A program made the translations under genes and the position numbers. Positions 39,112 to 39,280 of a DNA stretch of 64,000 bases are shown piece after piece. Within the stretch, counting starts at the first letter, position 1; each line of letters starts with the position of its first letter. This stretch comes from a virus. The notes beneath the pieces are model-generated. The model worked only from the letters and a program-made list of their open reading frames with translations. It was not told the origin of the DNA and ran no database searches. The DNA lies in IMG/VR virus record IMGVR_UViG_3300008952_002488, positions 64,001 through 128,000 of that record, one strand, 5' to 3'.

Positions 39112-39142
39112 TTGACCATCCCCTAATCCGTGCTATTATACT
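39112..39142 (+). promoter_or_regulatory. Early promoter TTGACC-N13-TGCTATTATACT driving a non-coding region
   Basis: Repeated promoter class; no ATG follows the GGAGGGAGAG leader. Confidence 0.85.
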
Positions 39143-39280
39143 GTTGGAGGGAGAGACAGTCATAAACTCAGTGCCGAGCCACGACATTCGCCCTAGGGAT
39201 CTGTAGCGGCGGCACTGACAGATGGAGACGGTTATCATGCTCTCCCTCGGCTCTGAGTTTATGACTGTTTCCTTCTCAAC
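39143..39280 (+). ncRNA. Candidate structured ncRNA with ~35-bp terminal stem
   Basis: 39143-39178 pairs with 39246-39280 (16 perfect bp, one mismatch, 6 more bp); two internal hairpins. Confidence 0.7.

What the first reader, a model, noticed from the sequence alone, without database searches (positions are those of the whole stretch)
39112..39280. Early-promoter-driven ncRNA with a ~35-bp closing stem and a mutually exclusive alternative fold
Seen: one of seven copies of the early promoter is followed by the usual G/A leader but no start codon. 39143-39178 pairs with 39246-39280, including 16 perfect bp ACAGTCATAAACTCAG/CTGAGTTTATGACTGT, and encloses hairpins ATCTGT/ACAGAT and GGAGA/TCTCC. 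The 5' arm has second partners: TCAGTGCCG (39168-76) with CGGCACTGA (39210-18), and GAGGGAGAG (39147-55) with CTCTCCCTC (39240-48). CTCTCCCTC is also complementary to the AGGGAGA leaders of the other early genes. Inference: a highly expressed switching RNA. It could be a trans-acting repressor of early mRNAs, an RNase III substrate, a 6S-like RNAP decoy, or a decoy for an RNA-containing defence system, since the layout resembles a retron ncRNA without an RT.
Basis: partly seen in the sequence, partly recalled or inferred. Interest (0 to 1): 0.8.

Follow-up and report, generated by a model that had tools for sequence, protein, structure and literature searches.

The report
Portable leader hairpin plus tRNA-like phage RNA
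The flagged hairpin is real, but it is an optional add-on placed in front of a conserved, uncatalogued ~165-base phage RNA that ends in a tRNA look-alike with no anticodon arm; the proposed structural switch is not conserved in relatives.

Summary
The window comes from an uncultured marine T4-like phage. The promoter at 39112-39139 is one of seven near-identical early promoters in the window, and the only one with no start codon behind it.

**Hairpin.** The long hairpin is real: 39147-39178 pairs with 39246-39277, z = -6.4, and the pairing is kept in every variant. It is not the RNA's core, though.
- Three related contigs carry the same transcription unit without it, differing by a 134-nt indel flanked by a 9-nt repeat of the leader.
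- A fourth contig has the same hairpin in front of a protein gene whose orthologues have a plain leader.

**Conserved RNA.** It has two hairpins with invariant 7-nt loops, a near-invariant purine-rich stretch, and a tRNA-like domain with acceptor, D and T arms but no anticodon arm. Across nine loci, 14 of 39 pairs covary. It matches no Rfam family.

Both 9-bp alternative pairings exist here, but substitutions in relatives break them. I found no support for retron, 6S, Y-RNA or small-peptide readings.

**Likely mechanism (inferred).** The hairpin acts as a 5' stabiliser or RNase III site. The tRNA-like end is recognised by RNase P and other tRNA enzymes. The scan has noted anticodon-less phage tRNA look-alikes in other genomes before.

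The parts
39112..39139 (+). Early sigma-70-type promoter: -35 at 39112-39117, 16-nt spacer, TG-extended -10 at 39131-39139. Start of transcription inferred near 39146.
   Evidence: One of 7 near-identical promoters in the window and 9 in the record. It shares a 10-nt spacer block with the promoter at 36096.
39146..39156 (+). Leader copy 1, the purine-rich 5' end of the RNA. Its last 9 nt (39148-39156) are the left copy of the direct repeat flanking the hairpin insertion.
   Evidence: It pairs with 39269-39277 in the closing stem.
39157..39281 (+). Closing stem 39147-39178 / 39246-39277, apical branched domain 39179-39245.
   Evidence: z = -6.4. Pair list. Pairing kept in 5 distinct variants, including one U-A / U.G / C-G series. 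Absent from L062, L052 and L064. Present before a protein gene in L069.
39282..39290 (+). Leader copy 2, the right copy of the 9-nt direct repeat (one mismatch in this window) and the 5' strand of helix P1 of the core RNA.
   Evidence: L062 carries a single copy and lacks the 134 nt in between.
39282..39323 (+). Core RNA helix P1 (39282-39289 / 39317-39323) enclosing hairpin a (39292-39298 / 39306-39312). The 7-nt loop at 39299-39305 is invariant.
   Evidence: hairpin a has 5 of 7 pairs with changes on both sides, and P1 has 3 of 8.
39325..39343 (+). Core RNA hairpin b (39325-39330 / 39338-39343) with a 7-nt loop at 39331-39337. The loop has the same pattern as loop a, and only its third base varies.
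   Evidence: 3 of 6 pairs have changes on both sides.
39344..39391 (+). Near-invariant purine-rich linear segment containing small hairpin c (39365-39368 / 39374-39377).
   Evidence: Conserved even in the most divergent homologue, L064, where the stems have changed.
39392..39444 (+). tRNA-like domain without an anticodon arm: acceptor 39392-39398 / 39437-39443, D arm 39399-39411 (loop with GG), 8-nt linker 39412-39419, T arm 39420-39436 with a consensus T loop.
   Evidence: Rfam tRNA model: 21.5 bits, below the 29-bit threshold, with the anticodon arm deleted. ARAGORN does not call it. Two acceptor pairs covary: G-C/A-U and G-C/C-G.
39445..39454 (+). 3' tail and T-run. No encoded CCA. The T-run is missing in the L063-type and L064 variants.
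   Evidence: No canonical intrinsic terminator detected.
39456..39483 (+). Next early promoter, driving the 157-aa gene at 39505-39978. It marks the right boundary of the cassette.
   Evidence: The flanks of the cassette differ between contigs.

Best explanation
The region is one early, non-coding transcription unit of a marine T4-like phage. It is built from two separable parts.

It sits directly at the 5' end of the transcript and carries a duplicated copy of the early leader.
- Shown: it can be present or absent in front of the same downstream RNA, and it also occurs in front of a protein gene.
- Inferred: it most likely acts in cis as a 5'-terminal stabilising stem-loop and/or an RNase III processing site for early transcripts. 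It may spread by recombination within the shared promoter and leader sequences.

**Part 2: the conserved ~165-nt RNA (39282-39447).** It consists of helix P1 plus two hairpins with invariant 7-nt loops, a near-invariant purine-rich single strand, and a 3' tRNA-like domain. That domain has acceptor, D and T arms but no anticodon arm.
- Shown: the structure is conserved with covariation, and the RNA is an accessory cassette in a hypervariable early region.
- Inferred: the tRNA elbow and acceptor make the RNA a substrate for RNase P and the tRNA end-processing enzymes. This would define and protect its ends, as tRNA-like elements do in other processed transcripts. The conserved loops and linear segment would then be the working surface that binds a still unknown host or phage partner.
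For: **Anatomy and conservation**
- Promoter family, and the missing start codon at this copy only.
- Hairpin stability.
- Seven homologues at 92-94% identity, plus one more divergent.
- Covariance model R1 finds exactly one copy per locus.
- The core structure is 96% paired. 14 of 39 pairs have changes on both sides, against 4.3 +/- 1.5 in shuffles (0 of 500). Slid controls are 35-57% paired. On the unfitted alignment the figure is 9 pairs.

**Hairpin is a separable module**
- It is missing from L062, L052 and L064, with a 9-nt direct repeat at the junction.
- The same hairpin lies between promoter and ribosome-binding site of an 85-aa gene in L069.
- Orthologues of that gene have plain leaders, including in this phage's own genome.
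- Main-stem substitutions keep pairing.
- The stem starts at the second predicted transcript base.

**tRNA-like domain**
- Match to the Rfam tRNA model with the anticodon arm deleted, a consensus T loop and GG in the D loop.
- Compensatory changes in the acceptor stem.

**Cassette mobility**
- Different flanking genes in different contigs.
- Absent from four related phage records, one of them rated complete.
- This fits published promoter-terminator cassette shuffling in T4-like phages (PMC2839356, PMC4122927).
Against: - There is no direct evidence of transcription, of the ends, or of any cleavage.
- The homologues are close relatives, with only 7 distinct core sequences and 5 distinct hairpin sequences. 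For the hairpin alone, covariation is not significant: 1 double change, 199 of 500 shuffles.
- Both strands of the hairpin fold equally well, so a DNA-level palindrome is not excluded.
- No canonical terminator follows the tRNA-like domain. Its 3' tail is not conserved and lacks CCA, although the phage's real tRNAs encode CCA.
- A 26-bp near-perfect duplex could be destroyed rather than stabilised by RNase III.
- No partner for the conserved loops or linear segment was identified.
Confidence: 0.6

Rival explanations
1. The hairpin is a selfish, MITE-like palindromic DNA element (or a by-product of inverted duplication). It targets or recombines into the conserved early leader and has no RNA function of its own. 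The downstream RNA works the same with or without it.
For: - Presence/absence polymorphism with a 9-nt direct repeat at the junction.
- Two unrelated insertion contexts.
- Both strands fold equally well.
- Covariation in the stem is not statistically significant.
Against: - Only one copy in the 172-kb record, and only two contexts in all collections searched.
- The repeat arms are not symmetrical. The 3' arm carries 14 extra nt that pair with the transcript's own 5' end through G.U pairs.
- Eight of nine variable stem pairs keep pairing, including a U-A / U.G / C-G series.
- The apical domain is strongly conserved in sequence.
- No transposase was found nearby.
Confidence: 0.2
2. The tRNA-like core RNA is a counter-defence or takeover molecule. 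One version: it is a decoy or sponge for host factors that recognise the tRNA acceptor/elbow, such as tRNA-directed toxins or nucleases. Another version: it is a non-decoding aminoacyl carrier used off the ribosome.
For: - Early promoter, accessory distribution and location in a hypervariable region.
- An intact elbow and acceptor with the decoding arm cleanly removed.
- Conserved by covariation.
- The phage invests in translation RNAs: five tRNAs, a tmRNA and a TilS-like gene.
- Published work shows phage tRNAs can counter tRNA-targeting defences (PMC11555353, seen).
Against: - No partner protein is linked to the cassette, and the neighbours differ in every context.
- There is no CCA and no recognisable aminoacylation identity set.
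- The idea is entirely inferential.
Confidence: 0.12
3. One reading: 39146-39280 is a single RNA that switches between two mutually exclusive folds. It would act in trans on early leaders, or as a 6S-like or retron-like decoy.
For: - Two perfect 9-bp alternative helices in this sequence, unlikely by chance at about 5e-5.
- The anti-leader segment at 39240-39248 is complementary to early leaders.
Against: - The alternative helices lose pairing at five variable columns in relatives, while the main stem does not.
- The module is dispensable.
- The anti-leader is paired in the conserved fold.
- No reverse transcriptase, no Ro protein and no 6S or other Rfam match.
Confidence: 0.05
4. The region is decayed coding or tRNA sequence (a dead gene or dead tRNA pair), or it encodes the 26-residue peptide starting at 39222.
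For: - A short ORF stays open in all five hairpin variants.
- The leader resembles that of neighbouring protein genes.
Against: - All ORF substitutions are non-synonymous, its C-terminal frame differs between variants, there is no ribosome-binding site, and its start codon lies inside a stem.
- The core RNA shows compensatory substitutions and invariant loops across nine loci. Decay would not produce this.
Confidence: 0.03

Closest known systems
Bacteriophage T4 RNAC (species 1 RNA, rnaC), in the T4 tRNA region
   Same: - A small stable non-coding RNA of a T4-type phage with a structured 5' part and a tRNA-like 3' part. Here I saw a T arm and acceptor-like stem, with a weak tRNA-clan Rfam match.
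- Its function is still unknown (PMC3014915, PMC9697503).
- Like RNAC, this RNA lies near the phage's tRNA cluster, about 1.4 kb upstream.
   Different: - No sequence or model similarity: model R1 does not hit rnaC.
- RNAC keeps an anticodon-arm-like hairpin and is reported as a late RNA processed from the tRNA precursor.
- This RNA has its own early promoter, lacks the anticodon arm, and has two extra hairpins with conserved loops.
tRNA-like processing and end-protection elements (MALAT1/mascRNA, mitochondrial tRNA punctuation, RNase P-processed phage P1/P7 C4 RNA). From my own knowledge, not tested here.
   Same: A tRNA-shaped module at the 3' side of a longer RNA that could recruit RNase P and the tRNA 3'-end enzymes to define the ends.
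   Different: - No cleavage data here.
- This is a bacterial virus.
- The domain lacks CCA and the anticodon arm.
tmRNA tRNA-like domain, and YrlA-type Y RNAs (PMC4201824)
   Same: tRNA mimicry that keeps the acceptor, T arm and D-loop elbow but has no decoding arm.
   Different: - tmRNA: its acceptor is formed by the 5' and 3' ends of the RNA, it has G3.U70 and it carries a tag ORF. Here the acceptor is closed locally. The phage's true tmRNA is elsewhere, at 54098-54423.
- YrlA: permuted topology and a Ro partner. No TROVE protein was found here.
Transcribed palindromic MITE-like repeats (Neisseria Correia/NEMIS, enterobacterial ERIC) and 5'-terminal stabiliser stem-loops such as the ompA leader. 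From my own knowledge.
   Same: - An imperfect palindrome of about 125-135 nt, inserted in a transcribed leader and flanked by a short direct repeat.
- Present/absent polymorphism between relatives.
- A long duplex that would suit RNase III.
- A stem flush with the 5' end, as stabilisers require.
   Different: - Single copy per genome, and only two contexts known.
- Asymmetric arms.
- The target is the phage's own conserved early leader.
- No experimental evidence.
PeSL promoter-terminator cassettes of T4-like phages (PMC2839356, PMC4122927)
   Same: Repeated early-promoter motifs bounding small mobile cassettes in hyperplastic regions. Here the RNA cassette has different neighbours in different phages.
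   Different: - PeSLs are a terminator stem-loop followed by a promoter.
- Here the large hairpin lies downstream of the promoter, inside the transcript, and the cargo is an RNA gene.

Membership tests
tRNA (Rfam RF00005) | Score at or above the gathering threshold, and called by a tRNA finder | tested here: not met
   21.5 bits against a threshold of 29. ARAGORN does not call it.
tRNA (Rfam RF00005) | Anticodon arm present | tested here: not met
   The model's anticodon-arm positions are deleted, and 8 nt link the D and T arms.
tRNA (Rfam RF00005) | Acceptor stem, T arm with consensus T loop, and D loop with GG | tested here: met
   alignment. The acceptor stem covaries.
tmRNA | Acceptor formed by the 5' and 3' ends, a tag reading frame, and a match to RF00023 or ARAGORN | tested here: not met
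   The only tmRNA call is at 54098-54423. Here the acceptor is local and covaries locally.
Retron ncRNA (msr-msd) | An adjacent or genomic reverse transcriptase | tested here: not met
   No RVT_1 match in the record, which is about 60% complete. Neighbouring genes are unrelated.
6S RNA | Match to the 6S models; a long duplex with a central open-promoter-like bubble | tested here: not met
   No Rfam match even at E up to 10. The fold is a closed stem with an apical branched domain.
YrlA / Y RNA | A Ro60 (TROVE) partner gene and a permuted tRNA-like module | tested here: not met
   No TROVE match, no Rfam match, and the arm order is not permuted.
T4 RNAC family | Sequence or structure homology to rnaC | tested here: not met
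   Model R1 gives no hit on T4 rnaC. The resemblance is in architecture only.
MITE-like transcribed palindromic repeat | Terminal inverted repeats, a flanking direct duplication, and an empty site in a relative | tested here: met
MITE-like transcribed palindromic repeat | Multiple dispersed copies per genome | tested here: not met
   One copy in the 172-kb record. Only one further context found in IMG/VR.
RNase III substrate / 5' stabiliser stem-loop | A duplex of about two helical turns or more; a stem within a few nt of the 5' end; demonstrated cleavage or stabilisation | tested here: inconclusive
   The duplex length (19 + 6 bp contiguous blocks) and a stem starting at predicted base 2 are met. 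The transcription start, cleavage and half-life cannot be tested with these tools.
New core RNA family (model R1) | Conserved secondary structure with compensatory changes in independent loci | tested here: met
   Nine loci, seven distinct sequences. 14 of 39 pairs have double changes, 0 of 500 shuffles.

The most novel reading that the evidence does not exclude
Marine T4-like phages carry an uncatalogued early RNA whose anticodon-less tRNA body is a working tRNA mimic. It would act as a decoy for tRNA-directed host immunity or as an off-ribosome aminoacyl carrier. In addition, the hairpin would be a new kind of phage mobile element: a leader cassette that inserts specifically into the conserved early leader and tunes the RNA or mRNA behind it.
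Probability: 0.15. Interest if true: 0.8.

Novelty: new variant of a known kind. Interest (0 to 1): 0.58.

Why it matters
Phage non-coding RNAs are poorly charted. The tRNA-like RNAs of T4 have had no known function for fifty years (PMC3014915).

This work gives a covariation-supported family with a clean design: a tRNA upper half with no decoding arm, two hairpins with fixed loops, and its own early promoter. It also provides natural versions with and without a large 5' hairpin. Those variants are a ready-made experiment for asking what a 5' leader hairpin does to a phage RNA, and what a non-decoding tRNA body is for.

If the tRNA-like part engages tRNA-processing or tRNA-targeting host factors, it bears on the current question of how phages cope with tRNA-directed defences.

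For genome annotation, it shows that a conspicuous stem can be an add-on, with the conserved gene lying next to it.

Tried and rejected
**Database searches that found nothing**
- Rfam at gathering and at permissive thresholds: nothing except a sub-threshold tRNA match.
- blastn against cultured phages: no match.
- BLAST and model searches of ten related IMG/VR records: no homologue. The relatives have other genes at both flanks.
- First IMG/VR pattern: no hit.
- GTDB genome scan with the conserved 18-mer: three chance hits, none matching the model.
- TROVE/Ro and reverse transcriptase: none.
- tblastn of a neighbouring 746-aa protein against phages: no match.

**Public sequencing runs**
- No RNA holder was listed.
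- The DNA runs of at least three studies hold identical sequence, so they gave no variation.

**Ideas considered and dropped**
- An encoded ACCA end just before the tRNA-like domain (39389-39392): these bases vary between homologues.
- Hairpin b as a Met/Ile2 anticodon-arm mimic: the middle loop base changes in L064, so only the N-A-U-C-A pattern is kept.
- The long-range helix 39295-39302 / 39382-39389 from the single-sequence fold: it is compatible with all variants, but only through one-sided changes, and it competes with the strongly covarying hairpin a. Left unexplained.
- Loop-loop or loop-strand pseudoknots: not supported by L064.
- 5' end pairing with the 3' acceptor strand: one-sided changes only, against true double changes for the local acceptor.
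- Replication origin: no skew change in the window.
- Alternative fold and small ORF: see the rival explanations.

Full report
**Source and setting**

The window is bases 64001-128000 of a 171,926-base IMG/VR virus record, rated about 60% complete. The record encodes a T4-type major capsid protein. That protein is under 50% identical to any cultured phage; the nearest are Microcystis, Flavobacterium and Rhodothermus myoviruses. The same sequence occurs, letter for letter, in marine and seawater metagenomes of several studies. So this is an uncultured marine T4-like phage whose host is unknown.

The window holds five tRNA genes and a tmRNA gene. Genes around the finding encode a phosphomannomutase, an SLT lytic transglycosylase (38624-39106), proteins of unknown function, and a PP-loop (TilS-like) protein next to the tRNAs.

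**Checking the observation**

A regular-expression scan finds seven promoters of one design in the window, at 10484, 22012, 23174, 36096, 39112, 39456 and 39984. Each has a -35 hexamer, a 16-nt spacer ending in TG-N, and a -10 hexamer. There are nine in the whole record. Every one except 39112 is followed by a purine-rich leader and an ATG within about 25 nt. The generic promoter scan also reports 39112-39139 and 39456-39483.

The stem is real:
- The minimum-energy fold pairs 39147-39178 with 39246-39277. That is 30 bp, including 16 perfect bp at 39156-39171 / 39253-39268.
- The energy is 6.4 standard deviations below shuffles.

Two such matches to the 5' arm arose in only about 5 of 100,000 dinucleotide-preserving shuffles of the inner region. 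So the description is accurate. It omits that the non-coding stretch runs on to about 39450.

**What else the transcript contains**

There is no ORF of any length between 39140 and 39500 on the + strand, apart from 26 codons starting at 39222.

A permissive Rfam scan gives one match, to the tRNA model at 39392-39444. It scores 21.5 bits against a threshold of 29. The acceptor stem, D arm and T arm align well, and the whole anticodon arm is deleted. The T loop is the consensus and the D loop has the GG pair, so the elements that form the tRNA elbow are there. ARAGORN does not call it. The phage's real tRNAs all encode CCA; this element does not.

**Homologues**

Ten related phage records contain no copy. 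At the corresponding places they carry other small genes, each behind the same kind of promoter.

A metagenome scan with a pattern built from the D loop and T loop recovered seven homologues at 92-94% identity: L052, L055, L056, L060-L063. A scan with a conserved 19-mer found a more divergent one, L064.

The flanking genes differ between these contigs. The unit therefore moves as a cassette bounded by early promoters. This is the kind of shuffling described for T4-like phages as PeSL-mediated (PMC2839356, PMC4122927).

**The hairpin is a separable module**

- L060 and L062 have the same promoter and the same downstream RNA. L062 lacks 134 nt and carries one copy of a 9-nt leader segment that flanks the hairpin on both sides in L060 and in the window (39148-39156 and 39282-39290).
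- L052 and L064 also lack the hairpin and have ordinary leaders.
- In contig L069 the same hairpin sits between an early promoter and the ribosome-binding site of an 85-aa protein gene.
- Orthologues of that gene in six other contigs, and in this phage's own genome (promoter at record position 58265), have no hairpin; three of them show a plain promoter and leader.

Among five distinct hairpin sequences the main stem stays 99.5% paired. One pair (39163/39261) runs through U-A, U.G and C-G, and others change only to wobble pairs. With so few changes this is not statistically significant on its own: 199 of 500 shuffles do as well.

The alternative helices behave differently. Five of their variable columns lose pairing in relatives, and none compensates. 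I conclude that the switch is not under selection, even though the two perfect 9-mers in this particular sequence are unlikely to be pure chance. They may be leftovers of an internal duplication of the 3' arm.

**The conserved RNA**

I aligned 39282-39447 with its eight homologues and derived a consensus:
- Helix P1, whose 5' strand is the leader itself, encloses hairpin a. Its 7-nt loop is invariant.
- Hairpin b has a 7-nt loop of the same pattern, and only its third base varies.
- A 21-nt purine-rich single strand is near-invariant.
- Next come the small hairpin c and a further conserved stretch.
- The tRNA-like domain follows.

Covariation evidence:

| Alignment | Cells paired | Pairs changed on both sides | Shuffled mean | Shuffles reaching observed |
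|---|---|---|---|---|
| Sequence alignment A4 | 94% | 9 of 39 | 3.0 | 0 of 500 |
| Model-fitted alignment A5 | 96% | 14 of 39 | 4.3 | 0 of 500 |

- Sliding the partners by 1-3 columns drops pairing to 35-57%.
- The model-fitted alignment leans towards the structure, so the sequence-alignment figure is the conservative one.
- The double changes occur in P1, in hairpins a, b and c, and in the acceptor stem (G-C to A-U, and G-C to C-G).
- The T arm and D stem never vary, so they say nothing either way.

The model finds one copy per locus. It finds none in the related complete phage genome, in T4's rnaC region, or in the bacterial contigs that share the 18-mer. This is a genuine structured RNA family that is not in Rfam.

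**How it probably works**

What is shown:
- The anatomy of the unit, and the conservation of the core structure.
- The cassette behaviour and the optional nature of the hairpin.

The rest is inferred.

*Hairpin.* The stem begins at the second base of the predicted transcript. Its 3' arm has an extra 14 nt that pair with the transcript's own 5' end through G.U pairs. It leaves the functional second leader copy free. This is the geometry of a 5'-terminal stabilising stem-loop. A duplex of 19 + 6 contiguous base pairs is also long enough for RNase III. I therefore read it as a cis-acting stability or processing module, with a selfish palindromic insertion as the main rival.

*Core RNA.* The tRNA-like domain keeps exactly the parts that RNase P, CCA-adding enzyme and other tRNA-handling proteins recognise, and drops the decoding arm. 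In some homologues it is followed by the next gene without a T-run. No canonical terminator is detected here either. End definition by tRNA-type processing is therefore the most economical role. The invariant loops and linear segment would then be the part that meets a partner. Which partner is unknown, because no gene travels with the cassette.

**Comparison with known systems**

The nearest known thing is T4 RNAC (species 1 RNA). In my analysis RNAC also has a T arm and an acceptor-like stem at its 3' end behind a structured 5' part, and its function is still unknown. There is no homology between the two. RNAC keeps an anticodon-like arm and is reported as a late RNA.

The tmRNA, YrlA, retron and 6S readings each fail a defining feature (see the membership table).

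Anticodon-arm-less tRNA-like elements also close a 390-nt non-coding region in unrelated viral contigs (L032/L048), where homology stops just after the element. Another sits between two genes in L038. Earlier notes of this scan report similar non-decoding tRNA look-alikes in other phages. I did not test those. Together they suggest a wider, undescribed habit of phages.

**Verdict**

- Observation: partly confirmed.
- Interpretation: partly supported.
- The more interesting object is the conserved tRNA-like RNA next to the flagged stem, together with the natural with/without-hairpin variants.

Noticed in passing
L032:437-815 (+), its homologue in L048, and L038:3542-3591 (-): Unrelated viral contigs also carry tRNA-like elements with acceptor, D-loop and T arm but no anticodon arm. 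In L032/L048 the element ends a ~390-nt structured non-coding region, and homology between the two contigs stops about 15 nt after it. In L038 a 50-nt version sits between two ORFs.
   Followed up: partly
window 54098-54423: The phage encodes a full-length tmRNA (79.5 bits) with predicted tag ANDDFEMEMAA. It partly overlaps the start of a PIN-PhoH ORF (54363-55802).
   Followed up: no
window 40839-41836: A cluster of five tRNA genes (Gly, Arg, Met/Ile2-type CAU, Thr, Gly), all with encoded CCA. A PP-loop (TilS-like) ORF at 40960-41643 runs into the CAU tRNA.
   Followed up: no
window 40669-40832: A 164-nt non-coding gap just upstream of the tRNA cluster. Not examined here.
   Followed up: no
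window 31569-36015 and 7844-9430: The phage carries a PrkA / DUF444 / SpoVR gene trio and a GroEL-type chaperonin. This is an unusual auxiliary gene set for a T4-like phage.
   Followed up: no
window 39135-39163 (- strand): A promoter-like site (10 of 12 matches) lies on the minus strand inside the leader and the hairpin's 5' arm. It may be a by-product of the AT-rich -10 region.
   Followed up: no
window 39295-39302 with 39382-39389: An 8-bp long-range helix is compatible with all homologues through one-sided changes. It competes with the strongly covarying hairpin a. A real alternative state or pseudoknot of the core RNA is not excluded.
   Followed up: partly
L050:1909-2047 (-) (T4 rnaC): T4 species 1 RNA folds with a consensus-like T arm and an acceptor-like stem at its 3' end, and gives a weak tRNA-clan Rfam match. 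rnaD shows no such signal (z = -0.8).
   Followed up: partly
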